DNA from: Eledone cirrhosa
Taxonomy: Eukaryota
Length of the DNA stretch: 19,884 nucleotides
Assembly: GCA_964016885.1 (NCBI GenBank)
Contig: CAXHJY010000673.1
Location: forward strand, 1-19,884
Direction of reading: 5' to 3'
Shown here: positions 3,633 to 19,884 of the stretch, piece by piece
Position numbering within the stretch: the first letter of the stretch is position 1
Layout of the letters: every line of letters begins with the position of its first letter
Translations under genes and position numbers: made by a program
The notes under the pieces: model-generated
What the model saw: the letters and a program-made list of their open reading frames with translations, nothing else
Databases searched by the model: none
Told to the model about the DNA's origin: nothing

Positions 3633-3696
3633 CATATATATATAATATATATATACATATACATACATATATATATATATATATACACATATACAT
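1..3696. repeat. Compound (TA)n/(TACA)n/(CA) microsatellite block 1
   Basis: Near-continuous purine-pyrimidine alternation (tatatatacatacata...) with very few G on the + strand. It produces all the Y/I/M/C/V pseudo-ORFs in this interval. Confidence 0.98.
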
Positions 3697-4155
3697 ACTT
3701 ACACCTCTCCAAGACAATGTCACTGGACCGAGACCTTTGGCGGTACTCAGTAACAGAGAAGACCCGCCTTACCTAAATATATAGTAAAACCCACTCCAGC
3801 CAGTAGGCATCTCTAACAAAATACACCCCGTCCCACCACCCACCACCCCCACCCCATCCACACCACCCAGTTCTATGTAAAGTTATGTGGGTGCCGCGCC
3901 ATCGAGGCCGAAACAAATGAGATCGTGTAGGTGTCACGACAAAAAAACACACAGTCCACGCTGTAATGTGGCCGTGTAGGCAACACGGTAAAAACCTCCC
4001 AGACCCACACTGTAAATGTGGTTGGTGTTAGGAAGGGCATCCAACTGTAGAAAACCTGCCAGACAGTCCTATGCGAGCAAGACAATCACGTCTTGCCTCA
4101 AGTGGGACTACCCCCGTCCAAACCATGCAAGCGTGGGAACACGGACGTTAAACGT

Positions 4156-4186
<31 letters not shown>
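3697..4186 (+). mobile_element. RTE-clade LINE family A, copy A1 (3' ~490 bp only, 5'-truncated)
   Basis: Encodes the last codons LHLSKTMSLDRDLWRYSVTEKTRLT* (TAA 3774-3776), identical to the C-terminus of ORFs 8191..8610 and 11083..11748. A ~380-bp 3' UTR follows, nearly identical to the reverse complement of the other A copies, then a (GAT)10 tail at 4157-4186. Confidence 0.93.
4115..4147 (+). other. 3'-terminal RNA stem-loop of RTE family A (putative RT recognition element)
   Basis: CGTCC-aaa-CCATG-caag-CGTGG-gaacac-GGACG just before ttaaacgtt(GAT)n. It is present in all four A copies and structurally conserved in family B. Confidence 0.65.
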
Positions 4187-6450: not shown

Positions 6451-6451
<1 letters not shown>

Positions 6452-7775
6452 CAGATGCCCTCTTCTTGGTGAGACAAATGCAAGAGAGGTTCTTAGAGAA
6501 GAATAAGCCACTATACTTGGCCTTTGTTGACCTAGAGAAGGCCTTTGATAGGGTACCCCGATCTGTCATCTGGTGGTCCCTAAGGAAGCTGGGTGTTGAG
6601 GAATGGCTTGTAAGGACAGTGCAAACTTTGTACAGAGGTACTCTCAGTAAAGTCAGGGTAGGAATGGAGTTTAGTGAGGAATTCCAGATACAAGTAGGAG
6701 TACATCAGGGTTCGGTCCTCAGCCCGCTCTTGTTCATTATAGTCCTCCAAGCCATAACAGAGGAGTTTAAGACTGGCTGTCCATGGGAACTTCTCTATGC
6801 TGACGATCTGGCTCTTATGGCAGAATCAGTAGAGGAGCTAGAGAATAAATTCCGGCTATGGAAACAGCAGTTGGAAGCAAGAGGACTGAGAGTAAATCTA
6901 GCTAAGACAAAAGTGTTGATGAGTAGAAAAGAGGACAAAACCCTGATTCCGTCAGGGAAATGGCCATGTTCGATATGCAGAAAAGGAACTGGCATAAATT
7001 CTATAAAATGCACACAATGTAGGTCCTGGGTACACAAGAGATGTAGCGGGATAGCAGGCAAACTAACAGGTAGGGAGAAATATGTATGCAGTAGATGTAC
7101 AGGGAAATTAGACAGTAGAAGTCGCACTGATAGACACATTTTTCAAATGCGAGAGGGCGCTATAGAAGTGGTGGATAGCTTCCGGTACCTAGGAGATCAG
7201 ATTAGCATGGGAGGAGGGTGTTCCGAGGCCATAGTATCTAGAATAAGGACGGGTTGGAAGAAGTTTAGGGAGCTGCTTCCTCTGTTGACGAAGAAGGGTT
7301 TCTCCCTGCATACGAAAGGCCGGTTGTATGATGCCTGTGTGAGGAGCGCGATGCTGCATGGTAGTGAGACATGGGCAGCTACCGCAGAAGATATGCGACG
7401 GCTGGAGAGAAATGAGGCAAGCATGCTCCGTTGGATGTGCAGTGTAAATGTGCTGTGAACGACCCAGCATAAATGTGTTGAGAGAGAAACTGTGTCTGAG
7501 AGGGATAGAATGTAGTGTACGGGAGAGGAGACTGAGGTGGTATGGACATGTGATGCGCATGGAGGATGACCGATGGGTGAAGAAGTGCCAGGAAATGCCA
7601 GTTGAAGGAAGACGTAGTAGAGGAAGACCACGAAAAACATGGGCGGAAGGTGGTGAGAACAGACCTCAGATCATTGAAGCTCACGGTGGAGATGACGAGG
7701 GACCGTGACGAGTGGAGAGATGCTGTGCTGAATAAGACCCGTCCCACCCTTGCAAGCAGGGAAAAGCGGACGTAA
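6451..7775 (+). pseudogene. RTE reverse transcriptase fragment (family B) with internal PHD-type finger, two +1 frameshifts
   Basis: Motifs [31 protein letters not shown] (YADD 6796-6807), [34 protein letters not shown] and GRPRKTW. Frameshifts at ~7454 and ~7648; the final frame reads VVRTDLRSLKLTVEMTRDRDEWRDAVLNKTRPTLASREKRT* (TAA 7773-7775). Confidence 0.92.
7740..7772 (+). other. 3'-terminal RNA stem-loop of RTE family B
   Basis: CGTCC-cac-CCTTG-caag-CAGGG-aaaagc-GGACG, overlapping the last codons of the ORF. Same architecture as the family A hairpin. Confidence 0.65.
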
Positions 7776-7798
7776 AAATGATGATGATGATGATATAC

Positions 7799-9900
7799 AT
7801 CATCATCATCATCATCAACGTTTAACGTCCGTGTTCCACGCTTGCATGGGTTTGGACGTGGGTAGTCCCACTTGAGGCAAGAGTGATTGTCTTGCTCGCA
7901 TAGGACTGTCTGGCAGGTTTTCTACAGTTGGATGCCCTTCCTAACACCAACCACATTTACAGTGTGGGTCTGGGAGGTTTTTTACCGTGTTGCCTACACG
8001 GCCACATTACAGCGTGGAATGTGTGTTTTTTTGTTGTGACACCTACACGATCTCATTTGTTTCGGCCTGGATGGTGTGGCACCAACACAACTTTACATAG
8101 AACTGGGTGGCGTGGATGGGTTGGGGGTGGTGGGACGGGGGGCTATTTTGTTAGAGACGCCTACTGGCTGTAGTAGGTTTTACTATGTATTTAGGTAAGG
8201 CGGGTCTTCTCTGTTACTGAGTACCGCCAAAGGTCTCGGTCCAGTGACATTGTCTTGGAGAGGTGTAAGTGTGTGAGGTCGGAGTTTATCAGCTCGTCCC
8301 AGGTTTTTCTAGGTCTGCCTATTCCGTGGCTACCATCTATCTTTATTGCCCTGCACTTTGTTATACAGCTATCGACTTTCATGCGCATCACGTGTCCATA
8401 CCAACGTAGCCTTCTCTCGAGTAAACAACATCTGATCCCTCTTATTTCTAATTTTTTCCTTAGTTCGTTTATGCTTTGCCGTTCACGTATATTACTGTTA
8501 CACATCCAGCGGAGCATGCAAGCTTCGTTCCTCTCTAGTCTGCGTATATCCTCTGCACACAATGCCCAGGTCTCACTGCCATGCAACATTGCCTGTTCGT
8601 ATGCAGGCATCGTACAACCTGCCTTTCATTTTTAGGGAGAACCCTTTAGCAGCTAATAGTGGTATAAGCTCTCTGAACTTTTTCCAACCAGTTCTGACTC
8701 TAGCTACTGTACTTTCAGAGCACCTTCCCCCACTGCTGATTTTATCACCCAGGTAGCGGAAACTGTCCACTATTTCTATAGAACCCTCTGCGCAATTGAA
8801 AGAGCTAGTATTTTGTGGGCACTTGCTGCTACTTATTGTACCTGAGCACCGGCCACATGTAAAATTTATGTTCCTAGTTAGCTTACCTGTGATCCCACTA
8901 CATCTTTTATGCACCCATACTTTGCATTTAGGACATAAAATGGAGTTTCTACCTACGCCTTTCCTACACACCGAGCACGACCATTTCCCAGAAGGGACCG
9001 CCGCCTTATTTTCTTTCCTACAAACTAGAACTTTAGTCTTAGCCAGGTTAATTTTAAGGCCTTTTGATTCTAGGCCGTGCTTCCATGTTTGGAATTTCTT
9101 CTCTAGCTCGGCCATTGATTCCGCTATGAGTGTCAGGTCGTCTGCGTATAGGAGTTCCCATGGGCAGCCGGTCTTGAACTCCTCTGTTATAGCCTGAAGG
9201 GCAATAATAAATAGTAGGGGGCTGAGAACAGAGCCCTGATGGACGCCAACTTTTACGTTAAACTCTTCACTATATTCGTTGTGTAATTCTAACCTTGCTG
9301 ACTGTTTCTTTATACATGGCTTGTATAGCTCTCACAAGCCATTCGTCAACGCCTAGTTTTCTAAGAGCCCACCAGATAATGGAGCGGGGGGACTCTGTCG
9401 AAGGCTTTCTCCAAGTCGACAAAAGCTAAGTAGAGGGGTTTACCTTTAGCTAGGTACTTCTCCTGTAGTTGTCGTACAATGAAAAGAGCGTCTGTGGTAC
9501 TTTTGCCTGACACAAACCCGAACTGCATTTCATCTAGGTCAATTCTTTCTCTGATTAGTTGTGCTATTACTTTTTCCGTGACCTTCATGACCTGGTCGGT
9601 TAATTTAATGCCTCTATAGTTACTCCTATCTAGGGCGTCTCCTTTACCCTTATAACAGTTAACGATGATGCTGCTATGCCAGTCCTTCGGAACAACCCTC
9701 ATTCTGTATGACTCGGTTAACTATGCGGGTGACCATGGTGTGTCCCACCGTGCCAGATGCCTTCAGCATCTCAGCAACTATTTCCGAAGGCCCAGCCGCC
9801 TTACCAGTCTTCATATCCTTGATTGCCTTACTTATTATTATTATACTCCCCTCGACTAACACTGCTGGTCCCTCTATTGGGTCGATATGGGAGAAAGACT
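7799..9900 (-). mobile_element. RTE-clade LINE family A, copy A2 (~2.1 kb, 5'-truncated, no APE endonuclease region)
   Basis: (ATC)6 tail at 7799-7816, family A 3' UTR 7817-8190 and RT coding region 8191-9900, which ends abruptly in the microsatellite. Confidence 0.94.
8191..9900 (-). pseudogene. RTE reverse transcriptase (family A) with internal PHD-type finger, four +1 frameshifts
   Basis: Joining ORF pieces gives [72 protein letters not shown] (YADD 9137-9148), FRYLG, LHGSETW, RRLRWYGHVMRM and GRPRKTW. Frameshifts near 9697, 9388, 9288 and 8592. Confidence 0.93.

Positions 9901-10615: not shown

Positions 10616-10685
<70 letters not shown>
9901..10685. repeat. Compound (TA)n/(TACA)n microsatellite block 3
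   Basis: Alternating TA/CA with no G on the + strand and a locally regular ~28-bp higher-order unit around 10400-10600. Confidence 0.98.
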
Positions 10686-10687
<2 letters not shown>

Positions 10688-11691
10688 CATCATCAATCAT
10701 CATCAACGTTTAACGTCCGTGTTCCACGCTTGCATGGGTTTGGACGGGGGTAGTCCCACTTGAGGCAAGAGTGATTGTCTTGCTCGCATAGGACTGTCTG
10801 GCAGGTTTTCTACAGTTGGATGCCCTTCCTAACACCAACCACATTTACAGTGTGGGTCTGGGAGGTTTTTACCGTGTTGCCTACATGGCCACATTACAGC
10901 GTGGACTGTGTGTTTTTTTGTCGTGACACCTACACGATCTCATTTGTTTCGGCCTGGATGGCGCGGCACCAACATAACTTTACATAGAACGGGGTGGTGT
11001 GGATAGAGTGGGGGTGGTGGTGGTGGAACGGGGTGTATTTTGTTAGAGATGCCTACTGGCTGGAGTAGGTTCTACTATATATTTAGGTAAGGCGGGTCTT
11101 CTCTGTTACTGAGTACCGCCAAAGGTCTCGGTCCAGTGACATTGTCTTGGAGAGGTGTAAGTGTGTGATGTCGGAGTTTATCAGCTCGTCCCAGGTTTTT
11201 CTAGGTCTGCCTATTCCGTGACTACCGTCTATCTTTATTGCCCTGCACTTTGTTATACAGCTATCGACTTTCATGCGCATCACGTGTCCATACCAACGTA
11301 GCCTTCTCTCGAGTAAACAACATCTGATCCCTCTTATCTCTAGTTTTTTCCTTAGTTCGTTTATGCTTTGCCGTTCACGTATATTACTGTTACACATCCA
11401 GCGGAGCATGCAAGCTTCGTTCCTCTCTAGTCTGCGTATATCCTCTGCACACAATGCCCAGGTCTCACTGCCATGCAGCATTACTGTTCGTATGCAGGCA
11501 TCGGATAACCTGCCTTTCATTTTTAGGGAGAACCCTTTAGCAGCTAATAGTGGTATAAGCTCTCTGAACTTTTTCCAACCAGTTCTGACACTAGCTACAG
11601 TACTTTCAGAGCACCCTCCCCCACTGCTGATTTTATCGCCCAGGTAACGGAAGCTGTCCACTATTTCTATAGAACCCTCTGCGCCATTGAA
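10686..11691 (-). mobile_element. RTE-clade LINE family A, copy A3 (~1.0 kb, 5'-truncated)
   Basis: Interrupted (ATC)n tail at 10686-10704 followed by the family A 3' UTR. The coding part matches 8191-8800 closely until ...gcgccattgaa (11691), then switches to a short TA tract. Confidence 0.94.
11083..11691 (-). pseudogene. C-terminal fragment of family A RTE ORF (uninterrupted frame, no native start)
   Basis: [18 protein letters not shown]...LHGSETW...RRLRWYGHVMRM...GRPRKTW...EKTRLT*. The first ~19 aa of track ORF 11083..11748 come from flanking DNA. Confidence 0.9.
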
Positions 11692-11839
11692 TATATACAT
11701 ATATATATAGTATATAAGGGAGAGGATCAGGGGTGTATAACACTCCACTTATCCAATAGGCAGCATAAGGTTAGCTCGATGTCTGAGGACAGAGCCGTGA
11801 TATAATCAACAACAAAGAACGCCTATAGTATATGTATAT

Positions 11840-11897
11840 CTTTACTTGCTAACATTGTTTCATCCGCACTATAAGTGGGACTCATCAGAGCATAAAG
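11840..11897 (-). ncRNA. Minimal type I hammerhead ribozyme
   Basis: Minus strand reads CUUUA-UGCU CUGAUGA GUCC-CACU-uau-AGUG-c-GGAU GAAA C-aau-G U U AGCA-ag-UAAAG. The CUGAUGA and GAAA core is complete, with stem II 4+4 bp, a 2-bp stem III, a GUU cleavage triplet and stem I 4+5 bp with an AG bulge. Predicted cut between 11851 and 11850. Confidence 0.85.
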
Positions 11898-12320
11898 GTT
11901 GATTACATATTACACAAGCAATAACAAATCCAAGACATTGAAGAAATAAAGAATAAAAAATAATAAAAAATAAAAAATATTGAGGAAGTAAAAATAAAAA
12001 TAAACATTGAAAAATAAACATTGCAAAATAATTGAAAAATAAGGGGTGCTATCGGTCACAGTTGGGCGGGGTGCTGTCAACATACAGTTACATACAAGCA
12101 TACGCATGGATAAGAGTAGATAAGATAGATAGGAGTAGGTAAGAATAGATAAAAAATAGGTGAAAAATAGGTAAAAAATAGACATATAATATATATAAGA
12201 AATATAAAAAAATATAAAAAACATACATATAAAATATACAGATAATAGTGATACAGGGTAAGGAATGAAATAAAATAAAATAAAAATTATATAAAATAAG
12301 ATATAATATAATATAATAAT

Positions 12321-12360
12321 AATAAAATAAAATAAAATAAAATAAAATAAAATAAAATAA
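12321..12360. repeat. (AAAAT)n pentanucleotide microsatellite in A-rich low-complexity region
   Basis: aataaaataaaataaaataa..., about 8 units, with degenerate copies across 12265-12420. Confidence 0.85.
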
Positions 12361-12446
12361 ACTAAAATAATATAATATAAGATATAATTAAATAAAATTA
12401 AATAAAATAAAATAAAGTAAATTGAGATAAGATATATATTTTTAGA

Positions 12447-12575
12447 ATATATATATATATATATATACATATACATACATACATATATATATATATACAT
12501 ATACATACATATATATATATATACATATACATACATATATATATACATACATACACATACATACATATATATATA

Positions 12576-13502: not shown

Positions 13503-14201
13503 ATAAATTATTAAAAAAATAATGAATAAACAAAGAAACAGTTCCTTATATTAAACAAAAAAAGTTCATTATTTTACGATCGTTTCTAGGACATATATGT
13601 GTTAGAATTGGTATGCATATTCAAAAGATCTATGTACAAAATTATACAAACTATCAGAGTGAATATACATACCTTCACATATATATGCTGTCTTCAGAAA
13701 TAATGATGCTTGTTTATTGATAATAACAACAATTCAAAATAATAGGTCTGTTTGGGAACAGATTTTAAATAGACCAATGAAATAAAGATTGAGATACATA
13801 AAAATTTATCAAGAAAATACAGTTAGGTGTGTATATATGTATGTAAGTACGCTCACAGATGTGCATAAAAGTGTATGCTCATATGTATACGTATAGTGAA
13901 AAAGTGTATGTAAATATAAAATTTAGGGCTAATGTATCTGTATGTCTGTAATCAACAGACAGAATATATATATATATATATATATCACAAGTATATGAAT
14001 ATTGAGGCGCTCACATAAACACGCCCACACACACTTACATTTAGATGCGGAAGTAAAAGAGGTAAGGGAGTATAGTAATTAAAGGAAAGTGTCAATCTCG
14101 ACATACATATAAAAATGTATCAATAAATTAGAAATAAAAAAATAATTTTTTTTTTTTTTTTTTTTATAGAAGGAAAAAACTCAAGAAAAGAAGACAAAAA
14201 A
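13503..14201 (+). repeat. Left arm of 699-bp inverted repeat
   Basis: Reverse complement of 17827-18525 from ataaattattaaaaaaataatg to ctcaagaaaagaagacaaaaaa. Only a handful of substitutions and homopolymer length differences were seen by eye (e.g. gatgcgg/gatgtgg, catatatgtg/catatacgtg). Confidence 0.96.
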
Positions 14202-14704
14202 GGGGGGGGGGTACGTACATACACAGACACGCATGTCTCACAAAAGAAACATTAAAAAAACATAAAAGAGAGACATAAAATATACATGCTTATATACACA
14301 CGCACATTTACACATCCATACGTTCGATACGTACATACATACACACACACATACACATACTTACACTCACGCATATTGACCTGTTTGTATGCACACACAT
14401 AAAAATAAGTAAAACATATACCCATACATATAAATATACACCTATATATATATATATATACACACACACATACCCATGTATATATACAACCACACACACA
14501 CTCAGACATACATATATATAGACATACACACACATATATACACAGTCAGACACACATCTCTACACATACATATATATGCATACATATGTATTTTTATACT
14601 CACATAGAAACACACATACATACATACACACTTACATACACATACACACATCCACGCTTACATATACATATAATTATTGGGGGGGGGGGGGGGGGTGAAG
14701 GGGG
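14202..14704. repeat. CA/TACA-rich low-complexity tract bounded by G-runs
   Basis: G10 at 14202-14211, a degenerate (CA)n/(TACA)n interior and G17 at 14679-14695. Confidence 0.75.
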
Positions 14705-14801
14705 ATTAAATTTATTAATGGGAAATAGTAAATATATAGGTTTCAAGGAACATAGAATACTAACCTGCAGTTAAAGCTTTATATGTGTTTACTTATATCT
14801 G

Positions 14802-15743
14802 TTTTAGGAAATGGTATTTGTAAGAAGGAAAGCCAAATTATGTATTTTAATATAAGTAGAATATTAATTATAGGTTAACTAAAATAAAAATAGTTAATAT
14901 ATTAATTTCTAATTAGGTTTATAATATTTAAAGCGGAATTTTGAAGTTAAACAGTAGTAGAGTATTAATTATAGCATAACTAAATTAAAAATAATTACAT
15001 ATATTTACATGATGGTATCAATTTTAGGAAATGAATTTTGTAAGAGGGAAAGCCAAATTAAGTAGTTCATCGGTAGTAGATTATTAATTATAGGTTAACT
15101 AAATTAAAAATTATATATTAATTTCTATAGTATATGTTAATTAGGTTTATAATATTTAAAGCAGAATTTTGTATTTTATCTATAGTAGAATTTTAATTAT
15201 AGGTTAACTAAATTAAAATTAATCTATATATTAATTTGTAAAGTATATATTAATTAGGTATATATTTAAAAGTTTTTCTCAGTTTATGATTACACGATAT
15301 TTTGCATTTCATTTGTATTAGAATTTTAATTATAAGTTAACTAAATTAAAATTATAGGTTAACTAAATTAAAATTAAATTATATATTAATTTCTAAATTG
15401 TATATTAATTTGGTTTATAATATTAAAAAGTTTTTCTCCGTTTTTAATTACACGATATTTTGTTGTATTTCATCTGTAATAGAATTTTAATAATAGGTTA
15501 AATAAACTAAAATTAATCTATAAATTAATTTCTAAAGTATATATTAATTAGGTTAATAATATTTAAATGTTTTTCTCAGTTTATGATTATACAATATTTT
15601 TTATTTCATCTGTAGTAGAATTTTAATTAAAATTATAGGTTAACTACATTAAAATTAATTTATATATTAATTTCTAAAATATATATTATTAATTAGGTTT
15701 ATAATATTTAAATGTTTTTCTCAGTTTATGATTACACAATATT
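14802..15743. repeat. Degenerate AT-rich minisatellite (~110-150 bp units) in the PLE 3' region
   Basis: Core tagaattttaattataggttaactaaattaaaa recurs near 14857, 14967, 15076, 15186, 15319, 15480 and 15616. The motif ttaattaggtttataatatttaaa recurs near 14910, 15138, 15250, 15405, 15544 and 15689. Confidence 0.85.
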
Positions 15744-17826
15744 ATTAATTCCTGTTGCTTATTTAATAGGATATCCTTAGATTTCATTATTTCAAATAGT
15801 TCTTGGGAACACAATCTACATTCATTTCTATTATTTTGATAAGGGGTGGCTCTTTTGAGCACACTCCAGGTCATATCATATTCTATATTCCTCTTTCTAT
15901 AACTATTAATTTTTTCTGCTAGAGATGTTGTATTAGCCAGTGCGGCATTTTTAAAAAAACTATGTTTGTGGGTATTAAATCTTACCTTAAAATTGTTAGA
16001 AGTAGCTCCTATATATATGAGCAAATAGAATCCTTAGTTTTAACTTTACATTTATATACTATGTTGTTAACAAGACAATTTCCTTTTAATGGGCAGTTTG
16101 CCTTGTTTCTACAGTTACAACCTTTCGTTAATTCTGTATTTGAGGAGATATTATGGCTAGTTTGATGTACTGGTGGTATACTTATGGTTTTTTTACATTT
16201 ATATGCATTATAGGCACTTATATTTTGTTTTATGTTTTTGGTTGTTGAGTATGAGAATTTAACTGTTGATCTATTTAAGATTTGATGGTATTTGTGGTTT
16301 GGCGGGAAGTTTTTCTCTAGGATATTAAAGAATTTTTTAGGTATATTATCCTTAATTTGTAAATTAAATGGAGCATTATACCAAGTAACTCGTCTATTAC
16401 GGTTTCTATGTTGTTTATTGTTTTTATAGGATGCATCCTGATGTTTACTAGGAGGATTATTGTTAATGACCTCTCCACGCACATTTTTAGTTAGATTTAT
16501 TGATTTAGGTGTTTTAGCTTGTTTATTAGGAGTTTTATTATTAACATTTATTAGAGTTGTAGGATGAGTAGTTTTTTGAGAGTTACTATACTTTATATTA
16601 GAGGAGTTAGAGAAATTTGGTTTTATGTTGGTATTTTGGGGTATAGTGTGAGTGGCATTTAGGTGTGTACGTTTCATTTGGTGTTTGTTGGTAATATTAG
16701 GTTGTATGTTTATAGTGTTATTGGTAGAAGGTATATATTCCAATCTATTTTTGTGGCCACTTCTAGCTAGAGCTTCGTTATAAAAGGTCGCATTTTTATC
16801 AAATACATCTTGGTTAGACGAAAGGTTAGAAATTCTAAGTGATATATTATATGTAAGGTTTTTAAGGATAGATTTAGGGTGATTAGATTGTGAGTGTATG
16901 TAGTGTAAATTTTGGTTGGGTTTATGGTAAGGTTGGTAGATACCCGTAGCTAAGTCTAATGTTATATCTAGGAAATTAACTACTTTACTTGTGTTTTCAA
17001 AAGTAATATCTAGACTATAATAGTCTTTAAGGAAAGTTCTAATAAGCTTTTTGTTTTTTTCTATCCCTGAGAGGCTAAGGTTGTTGGAAAGAAGAAGACA
17101 GTCATCACGATATAAACCACCTTTAAGGTGGGGAAAGGAAGCATTTATGTTAAAAAGAAGAAAGAGGCCCACAAGATCAGTAATTTGGGCAGAATCGCTT
17201 GAGCCCATAGTAATATCAAATAGATTACTATATGTGTTTCTGGTCCAGTATTCATTCTGAAATTCAATTAGTGTTAGTCTAGCATGTGTAATAATATTAA
17301 TGTCATCCAAAGTTAAGTTAGATTTATTTTTAGCAAATATCAAAGCTTTGTTCAGGAGTATAGGTGATATAGAATAGTAATTATCTATATCAAATTGTAG
17401 AAATGAAGCAGAGGATTTACATCTAATATTATTAAACCAGTTAATTACCTGGGAAGTGTTTTCCCAGAGTGGTAAATTAACATGTTTTATTAGTTGTGGG
17501 ATGACTCTATCTAAAATTTTTTTGCTAATTATTCCAATATCTGATTTGGAGGGACATATAAGTCTTATAGAAGGATTAGAGTTAAAGTTTGATTTATGAT
17601 CTTTCAGGTTGAAGTGTGGTCTTTTCAATGCCAAAGGTTCAGTTCTATCTTCAATATTTAGTTTATTCACTGTTGCGTCTTTTGTTGTTGATGTTGGTGA
17701 GCGAGACATTATTTGTTTTTCTATAATTTTTCCTGAGTTCTTTATATATGAACTCATTGTAATTTTCAATATCCATGTGATATAGGTTTCCAGTTTTGAC
17801 CGAGTGGACATGGATTTTTTTTAGAT
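15689..17826 (-). pseudogene. Penelope-like RT-GIY-YIG polyprotein, two frameshifts, N-terminus missing
   Basis: RT motifs LKDHK, RLICPSKSDIG, FLQFDIDNYYSIS, FDITMGS, GLYRDD (17101-17112), VNFLDITLDL, YHKP and SNHP. Linker CNCx5CPLxxxC (16075-16119). Endonuclease IVYK...SYIG...FKVRFNTH...CRLCSQE...LLNKQQEL...CNH. Frameshifts at ~17682 (+1) and ~16014 (+2, TA slip) join ORFs 16009..17811 and 15689..16024. Confidence 0.9.
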
Positions 17827-18525
17827 TTTTTTGTCTTCTTTTCTTGAGTTTTTTCCTTATATAAAAAAAAAAAAAAAAATTATTTTTTTATTTCTAATTT
17901 ATTGATACATTTTTATATGTATGTCGAGATTGACACTTTCCTTTAATTACTATACTCCCTTACCTCTTTTACTTCCACATCTAAATGTAAGTGTGTGTGG
18001 GCGTGTTTATGTGAGCGCCTCAATATTCATATACTTGTGATATATATATATATATATATATATTCTGTCTGTTGATTACAGACATACAGATACATTAGCC
18101 CTAAATTTTATATTTACATACACTTTTTCACTATACGTATACATATGAGCATACACTTTTATGCACATCTGTGAGCGTACTTACATACATATATACACAC
18201 CTAACTGTATTTTCTTGATAAATTTTTATGTATCTCAATCTTTATTTCATTGGTCTATTTAAAATCTGTTCCCAAACAGACCTATTATTTTGAATTGTTG
18301 TTGTTATCAATAAACAAGCATCATTATTTCTGAAGACAGCATATATATGTGAAGGTATGTATATTCACTCTGATAGTTTGTATAATTTTGTACATAGATC
18401 TTTTGAATATGCATACCAATTCTAACACGTATATGTCCTAGAAACGATCGTAAAATAATGAACTTTTTTTTGTTTAATATAGGGAACTGTTTCTTTGTTT
18501 ATTCATTATTTTTTTAATAATTTAT
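17827..18525 (-). repeat. Right arm of 699-bp inverted repeat
   Basis: Reverse complement of 13503-14201; abuts the 5' break of the PLE coding region. Confidence 0.96.
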
Positions 18526-18656
18526 CTTGACTCTGTTTTCCGTTTATCTTTCACTGAAAGTGATTTTTGAATGCATCTCTTCTTTTCATGATATCTGGAT
18601 TACATTGAGTTCTTCATACGGATTGGACACTACCGTACACTTTTGGTAGATTTATC

Positions 18657-19477
18657 TATATACATATATATATACATACATATATATATATACATATATA
18701 CACATATACATATATACATATACATGCATATATATATATACATATACATACATACATATATATATATACATATACATACATATACATACATATATATATA
18801 TATATACATATACATACATACATACATATATATATATATACATATACATACATAAATATATATATATACATATACATACATACATATATATATACATATA
18901 CATACATACATATATATATATACATATACATACATACATATATATATATACATATATACATATATATATATATACATATACATACATACATATATATATA
19001 TACATATACATACATACATATATATATATACATATACATACATACATATATATATATATACATATACATACATACATATATATATATACATATACATACA
19101 TACATATATATATATACATATACATACATACATATATATATATACATATACATACATACATATATATATATACATATACATACATATATATATATACATA
19201 TACATACATATATATATATACATATACATACATATATATATATACATATACATACATATATATATATACATATACATACATATATATATATACATATACA
19301 TACATATATATATATACATATACATACATATATATATAGACATATACATACATACATATATATATATACATATATACATATATATATATACATATACATA
19401 CATACATATATATATATACATATACATACATACATATATATATATACATATACATATATATATATACATATACATAC
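18657..19477. repeat. Compound (TA)n/(TACA)n microsatellite block 5
   Basis: Regular higher-order units, e.g. the 24-bp unit tacatatacatacatatatatata repeated at about 19170-19335 (seen as repeated CMYMYIYI in the ORF track). Confidence 0.98.
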
Positions 19478-19884
19478 ATCATCATCATCAACGTTTAACG
19501 TCCGTGTTCCACGCTTGCATGGGTTTGGACGGGGGTAGTCCCACTTGAGGCAAGAGTGATTGTCTTGCTCGCATAGGACTGTCTGGCAGGTTTTCTACAG
19601 TTGGATGCCCTTCCTAACACCAACCACATTTACAGTGTGGGTCTGGGAGGTTTTTACCGTGTTGCCTACACGGCCACATTACAGCGTGGACTGTGTGTTT
19701 TTTTTGTCGTGACACCTACACGATCTCATTTGTTTCGGCCTGGATGGCGCGGCACCAACATAACTTTACATAGAACGGGGTGGTGTGGATGGGGTGGGGG
19801 TGGTGGTGGTGGGACGGGGTGTATTTTGTTAGAGATGCCTACTGGCTGGAGTAGGTTTTACTATATATTTAGGTAAGGCGGGTC
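19478..19884 (-). mobile_element. RTE-clade LINE family A, copy A4 (3' end; continues beyond window)
   Basis: (ATC)4 tail at 19478-19489, complete family A 3' UTR, stop codon at 19869-19871 and last codons TRLT*. Confidence 0.93.

What the first reader, a model, noticed from the sequence alone, without database searches (positions are those of the whole stretch)
11840..11897. Hidden minimal hammerhead ribozyme on the minus strand
Seen: complete catalytic core (CUGAUGA at 11888-11882, GAAA at 11861-11858, GUU triplet), bulged 9-bp stem I, extended bulged stem II, and a stem III of only 2 bp around AAU. Known: Penelope-like elements carry minimal type I hammerheads in their pLTRs with unstable stem III that cleave better as dimers. 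Unusual here: G-U at the base of stem II, a GUU rather than GUC/GUA site, an imperfectly palindromic stem III (AACAAUGUU), and an AG bulge in stem I that might contact loop II. No second copy is present in the window, so any dimer would have to form in trans. The ORF-less island could be a solo pLTR or a non-autonomous retrozyme-like element.
Basis: partly seen in the sequence, partly recalled or inferred. Interest (0 to 1): 0.75.

Follow-up and report, generated by a model that had tools for sequence, protein, structure and literature searches.

The report
Hammerhead of a Hydra-clade Penelope retrotransposon
This is a real hammerhead motif (a predicted self-cutting RNA) at the tail end of a truncated copy of a common Penelope-type jumping gene, present over a thousand times in this genome, and it is an ordinary new member of a described group.

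Summary
The motif is real: a type I hammerhead fold at 11897-11840 (minus strand), predicted cut between 11851 and 11850. It is not an ORF-less retrozyme. The island 12452-11706 is the 5'-truncated 3' end of an autonomous Hydra-clade Penelope-like element. Six fetched loci carry a 4.6-5.4 kb unit with RT/GIY-YIG frames between two copies of this hammerhead, so the dimer can form in cis there. A core pattern shared with four sister subfamilies matches 1,274 places (control 0). Subfamily changes avoid core and paired positions, but none is a two-sided compensatory change. The 'unusual' traits (GUU site, G-U base of stem II, odd palindrome in stem III) all occur in published Hydra hammerheads. 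Copies end at two fixed sites about 50 and 142-145 nt past the cut, and almost never at the cut, which fits published internal priming on uncut RNA. Cleavage is untested and no RNA data were available. The scan noted similar two-armed Penelope ends on other DNA of this genome. Side find: the window's other Hydra element carries two hammerheads with a 104-nt stem II (about 10,000 pattern matches).

The parts
11840..11897 (-). Type I hammerhead fold (family A); predicted cut between 11851 and 11850
11889..11897 (-). Stem I, 5' strand
11882..11888 (-). Core CUGAUGA (position 7, 11884, is U in 85 and A in 20 of 105 copies)
11862..11881 (-). Stem II, 8 bp, bulge at 11866, loop UAU; base pair G-U in 80 and G-C in 25 of 105 copies
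11851..11861 (-). GAA, stem III segment ACAAUGU (11858-11852; 3+1+3 palindrome, centre variable) and U17 (11851; U in 97, C in 8 of 105)
11840..11850 (-). Stem I, 3' strand with 2-nt bulge 11846-11845
11706..12452 (-). 5'-truncated 3' end (pLTR part) of a Hydra-clade Penelope-like element, family A, inserted in (TA)n; 5' edge about 600 nt upstream of the cut with ATATATTC microhomology; 3' end at the distal fixed site
11706..11800 (-). About 92-94 nt 'tail' between the two fixed 3' ends of the family (proximal end at 11800, distal end at 11709-11706)

Best explanation
The motif is a type I hammerhead carried in the pLTR of a Hydra-clade Penelope-like retrotransposon, and it is likely a slow, gated ribozyme that would cut only as a dimer or with help from the element's protein. 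Shown: the fold, the family, the ORF link, about 1,300 core matches, and where copies end. Inferred: a full element (pLTR-ORF-pLTR) is transcribed with two hammerheads 4.6-5.4 kb apart. Their ACA-N-UGU segments could pair (3 bp + mismatch + 3 bp, predicted -1.6 kcal/mol) to complete stem III in cis, and cutting after GUU would trim tandem or read-through RNA about 225 nt ahead of the first ATG. Most insertions, this one included, were likely reverse-transcribed from uncut RNA, primed on nicked (TA)n DNA at one of two internal sites about 50 or 142-145 nt past the scissile bond. The window copy stopped about 600 nt upstream of the cut, so it has no ORF and no partner. It is most likely an inert passenger that would cut little if transcribed.
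For: [quoted passage not shown] Similar units occur in L050, L051, L060, L082 and L098. 28 of 30 ORF-5'-end loci have the core upstream. Copies: 1,274 exact pattern matches vs 0 control; 1,301 with a looser pattern. Constraint: in 105 distinct copies, variants shared by 4 or more copies fall in 2 of 47 core/paired columns vs 6 of 11 free and 32 of 103 flank columns (p=3e-4, 1e-4), while rare variants are as frequent in constrained columns as in flanks (0.51% vs 0.43%). Using only columns outside the search pattern: 1 of 20 vs 3 of 6 (p=0.028) and vs flank (p=0.014). A sister copy with G-C and GUC scores 17.8 bits on Rfam Hammerhead_1 (E 0.12). Ends: of 69 copies, 36 end at the distal site, 23 at the proximal site, 7 run into the ORF, 2 end at the cut and 1 is at a locus edge; 15 of 18 back-to-back pairs have one end of each kind. 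Genome-wide only 3 places join (TA)n within 10 nt of the cut. None of 30 upstream pLTRs starts at the cut. PMC11167929 (parts 1-2 of 4 read) shows for an anole Poseidon element two internal RT start sites that define the tail, a hammerhead that cuts only with protein, and unprocessed RNA as the dominant template. PMC4209133 (parts 1-2 of 4) reports no monomer and low dimer cleavage for one minimal hammerhead.
Against: No cleavage or RNA data for this family. No two-sided compensatory change among 12 aligned variants, and the pairing score does not beat shuffles. Rfam misses the window copy. In flanking context the predicted fold loses stem I. The constraint test counts related copies that were picked by similarity or by a core pattern, so the p-values are optimistic and 104 of 105 intact cores is partly by selection. 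The protein-assistance result comes from a different PLE clade. Intact junctions fit re-ligated RNA as well as uncut RNA.
Confidence: 0.7

Rival explanations
1. The hammerheads cut the tandem transcript into a unit-length RNA that is re-ligated to a circle (or bridged by template jumps), and RT runs more than once round it to make pLTR-ORF-pLTR copies.
For: A circle predicts seamless junctions at both hammerheads and scattered pLTR 5' ends; 28 of 30 upstream pLTRs cross the cut site, with alignment ends from -145 to beyond -1400. Proposed in PMC4209133. The hammerhead is under constraint, so cutting probably matters somewhere.
Against: Uncut multi-copy RNA predicts the same pattern and was the dominant template in vitro for PAc. 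No long ORF-bearing arrays were seen among the fetched loci (only one pair of ORF 5' ends 5 kb apart on each of C1002 and C15, not examined further). No RNA evidence.
Confidence: 0.2
2. The island belongs to an ORF-less, non-autonomous retrozyme family that spreads on its own as short hammerhead units.
For: The window copy has no ORF, and most copies are ORF-less: 229 first-look candidates for the ORF 5' segment vs 1,502 for the island.
Against: ORF-less copies are nested 5' truncations of the same 3' UTR with varied 5' edges. No head-to-tail short arrays of this unit in 40 ten-kb loci.
Confidence: 0.04
3. The motif is a non-catalytic relic or a protein-binding structure kept for RT recognition.
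For: Weak stem III, G-U base and GUU are expected to lower activity (recalled knowledge). Catalytic mutants did not affect PAc insertion in vitro. The G-U form is the commonest here (69 of the first 100 listed).
Against: No shared variant in the 11 core columns, while position 7 and position 17 (U or C, never G) vary as the hammerhead rules allow.
Confidence: 0.06

Closest known systems
Hydra-clade PLE hammerheads (Craig et al. 2021, PMC8557442; section 11, search passages, and supplement part 2 with Files S1/S2 read)
   Same: Sense-strand type I hammerhead near the 3' end, (TA)n insertion, RWK-like, DKT and CxCX5C motifs. A GUU site is listed for 10 of 25 Hydra families, G-U at the base of stem II for Penelope-13_HM and -17_HM, and odd palindromes with one central base in stem III for many (counted by eye from File S2).
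   Different: New family, not the listed Hydra-1_oBim hammerhead. Unit 4.6-5.4 kb with a 3' UTR of about 2.4 kb, against 'generally <3 kb'. RWR instead of RWK. Stem III palindrome 7 nt rather than the usual 9-10. Bulged stems I and II. Tail about 92-94 nt against the 30-40 bp described.
Poseidon element PAc of the green anole (Frangieh et al. 2024, PMC11167929; parts 1-2 of 4 read, supplements not seen)
   Same: Hammerhead upstream of two fixed 3' ends that define a tail; AT-rich targets; no sign of ends at the cut site.
   Different: Other clade. The PAc hammerhead overlaps the start codon and its priming sites lie inside the ORF; here both ends lie about 80-175 nt before the first ATG, at TA-like microhomologies.
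Minimal PLE hammerheads (Cervera and de la Pena 2014, PMC4209133; parts 1-2 of 4 read)
   Same: Long stem II (7-8 bp), tiny palindromic stem III, mostly single copies from truncated PLEs, nearby copies on opposite strands.
   Different: No extra base between positions 9 and 10.1; G-U rather than the conserved G10.1-C11.1 in the main subfamily; longer, bulged stem I.
Rfam Hammerhead_1 (RF00163)
   Same: Core and GUCC/GGAC stem II base; sister copy L097 aligns at 17.8 bits.
   Different: Below the gathering score of 34; the window copy gives no match.
Animal non-LTR retrozymes (preprint 10.64898/2026.07.22.740005, part 1 of 5 read; PMC7229834, search listing only)
   Same: Type I hammerhead related to PLE pLTRs.
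   Different: Retrozymes are ORF-less tandem units; this is a truncation of an ORF-bearing element.

Membership tests
Type I hammerhead ribozyme | Core C3 U4 G5 A6 N7 G8 A9, G12 A13 A14, A15.1-U16.1, H17 | tested here: met
   104 of 105 copies keep all 11 core bases (sample partly selected on the core)
Type I hammerhead ribozyme | Stems II and III closed, ends meet in stem I | tested here: met
   98.2% of cells paired in 12 variants vs 24-43% for slid partners; stem III only 2 bp as a monomer
Type I hammerhead ribozyme | Covariation support for the helices | tested here: inconclusive
   0 two-sided changes, one G-U/G-C change; shared variants avoid paired columns
Type I hammerhead ribozyme | Rfam Hammerhead_1 gathering score (34 bits) | tested here: not met
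   0 matches; sister copy 17.8 bits. It is not a member of RF00163 as curated.
Type I hammerhead ribozyme | Self-cleavage 3' of position 17 | not testable with these tools
   no assay; no RNA reads
Hydra-clade PLE | Single ORF, RT then C-terminal GIY-YIG | tested here: met
   L099 844-aa frame, by motif; Pfam gives no family at E<=1
Hydra-clade PLE | RWK motif, DKT motif, CxCX5C linker, no CCHH, CxxC and CxH near the C-terminus | tested here: met
   RWR (conservative variant), DKT, CNCRRASGC, one Cys between VY and YIG, CNLC, CPH; matched by eye to Hydra-1_Obim text
Hydra-clade PLE | Insertion into (TA)n, pLTRs, inverted truncated arm, tail | tested here: met
Hydra-clade PLE | Placement in the Hydra clade on an RT tree | not tested
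   no tree with published proteins was built
Non-LTR retrozyme | ORF-less 150-400 nt units in head-to-tail arrays, each with a hammerhead (size range recalled) | tested here: not met
   same-strand neighbours are 4.6-5.4 kb apart with an ORF between; no short arrays in 40 loci

The most novel reading that the evidence does not exclude
An autonomous Hydra-clade element whose hammerheads cut and re-close a 5-kb unit into a circular RNA, which RT copies from both sides of one DNA break, starting one arm at each of two fixed sites. The recent G-C to G-U shift in the commonest subfamily would then be a tuning-down of cleavage. With about 1,300 young copies and G-C/GUC sisters in one genome, the family is a ready natural series for testing the circle model against the uncut-template model.
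Probability: 0.2. Interest if true: 0.55.

Novelty: new member of a known kind. Interest (0 to 1): 0.22.

Why it matters
As a discovery it matters little: hammerheads in PLE pLTRs, and in the Hydra clade in particular, are described, including the traits flagged as unusual. Its modest value is as material. It is a young, high-copy family with five natural hammerhead variants and two fixed insertion ends, which extends to the Hydra clade the two-start 'tail' pattern shown biochemically for a Poseidon element. It also shows that Rfam and short descriptors miss such motifs (this one, and the 104-nt stem II one next door).

Tried and rejected
(1) The window's own PLE ORF (15689-17820, minus) as the parent: rejected. 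None of 20 ten-kb loci of that family carries the island, and none of 20 island loci carries its RT at high identity (one has a 67% relative); the two proteins are 41% identical. (2) Insertion ends at the cut site as a fossil of cleavage: 2 of 69 copies, which look like one duplicated event, and 3 places genome-wide within 10 nt; no enrichment. (3) 5' ends at the cut site: 0 of 30; some of these 5' edges are alignment breaks in low-complexity DNA, so single values are rough. (4) Expression: no RNA holder listed; four contig runs of unrecorded kind hold the family at high depth and say nothing on cleavage. (5) Whole-window Rfam scan: 337 matches, the 150 shown are microsatellite noise with no ribozyme, 187 not shown. 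(6) Searches had errors (copies not dereplicated, positions 16.1 and 17 swapped, a descriptor that missed the true hit); they were redone, and only the folding energies and pair probabilities are used. (7) I first read family B as lacking a hammerhead; this was wrong, because the scans capped stem II at 40-60 nt. (8) A partner arm beyond the window: the contig ends at 19884, and none lies within it. (9) Lunse et al. 2016 is not held; it is known here only through passages of PMC6765202, and may describe variants like these. (10) A protein search of the genome with a family A frame gave no answer, so there is no count of ORF copies. (11) Sequence look-ups in earlier scan findings returned nothing for either hammerhead.

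Full report
Observation. On the minus strand, 11897-11840 reads stem I 5' (CUUUAUGCU), CUGAUGA, an 8-bp stem II with a G-U base pair and a bulged C, GAAA, C-AAU-GU, U17 at 11851, and stem I 3' with an AG bulge. A descriptor finds this one hit and fires in 2 of 1000 resampled windows; the isolated fold has z = -2.28. Rfam does not see it (0 matches), though a sister copy with G-C and GUC reaches 17.8 bits on Hammerhead_1, below the 34-bit cut-off. The active monomer is predicted to be unfavourable: -8.0 against -13.4 kcal/mol, stem III probability 0.0, and stem I is lost when flanks are added. Self-pairing of ACAAUGU is predicted at only -1.6 kcal/mol.

What carries it. The 415-nt island has 1,502 first-look candidates in the 3.0-Gb genome, and the 40 scored are 91-100% identical. 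A 32-place core pattern gives 1,274 matches against 0 for the reversed control. Copies share the span 12452-11706 of the window. In ten-kb loci this span is the 3' end of a longer element: L050, L051, L060, L082, L098 and L099 have RT/GIY-YIG frames between two same-strand hammerheads 4,632-5,377 nt apart. L099 has an unbroken 844-aa frame with RWR, DKT, YRDD, CxCX5C, GIY-YIG without CCHH, CxxC and CxH. These are the Hydra-clade marks listed in PMC8557442 section 11, with RWR for RWK. Pfam names nothing and no tree was built, so the clade call rests on motifs, (TA)n targeting and likeness by eye to Hydra-1_Obim. Of 30 loci picked by the ORF 5' segment, 28 have the hammerhead core upstream. The window copy is the last 750 nt of this element, sitting in a (TA)n tract with a short microhomology at its 5' edge. 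The PLE ORF elsewhere in the window (15689-17820) is a different family, 41% identical in protein and not linked to the island in 40 loci.

Are the 'unusual' traits unusual? No. File S2 of PMC8557442 lists 25 Hydra families. By eye, 10 have GUU, two have G-U at the base of stem II, and many have an odd palindrome with one central base in stem III. Within this genome, sister subfamilies have G-C (25 of 105 copies), GUC (8 of 105) and C, U or G at the palindrome centre. The stem I bulge keeps its A (103 of 105) but the second base is G or U, and the loop II centre takes all four bases, so a specific bulge-loop contact is unsupported, though not excluded.

Is it under selection? In 105 distinct copies, variants shared by four or more copies hit 2 of 47 core or paired columns, 6 of 11 free columns and 32 of 103 flank columns. 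Rare variants, which are likely post-insertion changes, are equally frequent in constrained and flank columns (0.51% vs 0.43%). One of the two shared changes keeps the pair (G-U to G-C); the other (11892, 6 copies) breaks the pair next to the bulge. Because 20 loci were picked with a core pattern, I repeated the test on columns outside that pattern: 1 of 20 vs 3 of 6 (p=0.028) and vs flank (p=0.014). Copies are related, so these p-values are optimistic, and there is no two-sided compensatory change. The pattern of change is that of a working hammerhead; catalysis itself is not shown.

How it most likely works. Copies end at two fixed TA-like sites, about 50 and 142-145 nt downstream of the cut: 23 and 36 of 69 copies, with 7 running on into the ORF, 2 ending at the cut and 1 at a locus edge. 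In 18 back-to-back pairs, 15 have one end of each kind, 1 has two distal ends and 2 involve the cut-site copy. Half of these loci were picked for having a distal end, but the partner arm was not selected. Ends at the cut are rare genome-wide (3 places within 10 nt), and no upstream pLTR starts there (0 of 30). So the RNA that was copied had an intact scissile bond. PMC11167929 shows the same logic biochemically for a Poseidon element: two internal RT start sites define the tail, the hammerhead cuts only with the element's protein, and uncut RNA is the main template. I therefore read the motif as a slow, gated ribozyme (dimer in cis across the 5-kb unit, protein help, or both) that would trim tandem or read-through RNA, while most insertions come from uncut RNA (0.7). 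The circle model of PMC4209133 fits the same junctions and stays open (0.2). A retrozyme family (0.04) and a non-catalytic relic (0.06) are unlikely. The window copy has no partner and no ORF, and is probably inert.

Novelty. New member of a known kind. My four paper searches found no description of this particular family, but the class, the clade and the traits are in print; Lunse et al. 2016 and the supplements of PMC11167929 were not seen and may cover more variants. Earlier notes of this scan describe two-armed Penelope ends on other DNA of this genome; they are leads, not support. Their mention of rearranged hammerheads made me rescan the window's other PLE with a wider descriptor, which turned up a hammerhead with a 104-nt stem II at 13697 (-) and 18330 (+). 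That side finding is arguably more interesting than the one assigned. Interest 0.22.

Noticed in passing
window 13706-13566 (-) and 18321-18461 (+): Two copies of a second type I hammerhead fold with a 104-nt stem II, in the pLTR and the inverted arm of the window's other Hydra-type element: 9-bp stem I, CUGAAGA, GAAA, palindromic AC-GAUC-GU, GUA site. Fold z = -4.88, 0 of 200 shuffles. 35 of 36 pulled rows keep the layout, with position 17 A or U, a U-A to U-G change in stem I and length changes in the distal loop. 10,069 pattern matches vs 0 control. Missed by Rfam. No earlier scan note matched. Cleavage untested.
   Followed up: partly
window 13506-18655: Hydra-type PLE family B: RT frame 16009-17820 (603 aa) and GIY-YIG piece 15689-16033 in another frame (-), shorter at the 5' end than the 834-aa frames elsewhere; a 139-155 nt tandem repeat in the 3' UTR (14800-15750); an inverted arm 17830-18655 with a tail of about 150 nt. 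48,792 first-look protein candidates.
   Followed up: partly
window 3693-4175, 6451-9900, 10678-11691, 19468-19884: Fragments of LINE-type elements with RVT_1 and PHD fingers; 7793-8800 and 10678-11691 are 95.6% identical. The family A copy abuts one of them across a short (TA)n.
   Followed up: no
   Followed up: no
L048 7541, L052 1632/1263, L057 9361/9257, L061 7612/7127, L051 7544/7402, L069 1797/1756, L066 763: At least six further hammerhead-like families turn up by chance in 50 fetched loci, often as back-to-back pairs; one has a 50-nt stem II. The genome is very rich in such motifs.
   Followed up: no
L086 5417 (-), L087 7859 (-), L105-L108: Rare copies that join (TA)n at or next to the predicted cut site; could be insertions of cut RNA, but too few to show enrichment. 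L086 and L087 look like one duplicated event.
   Followed up: partly
L041 3600-10000: Long low-complexity minisatellite giving many overlapping open frames.
   Followed up: no
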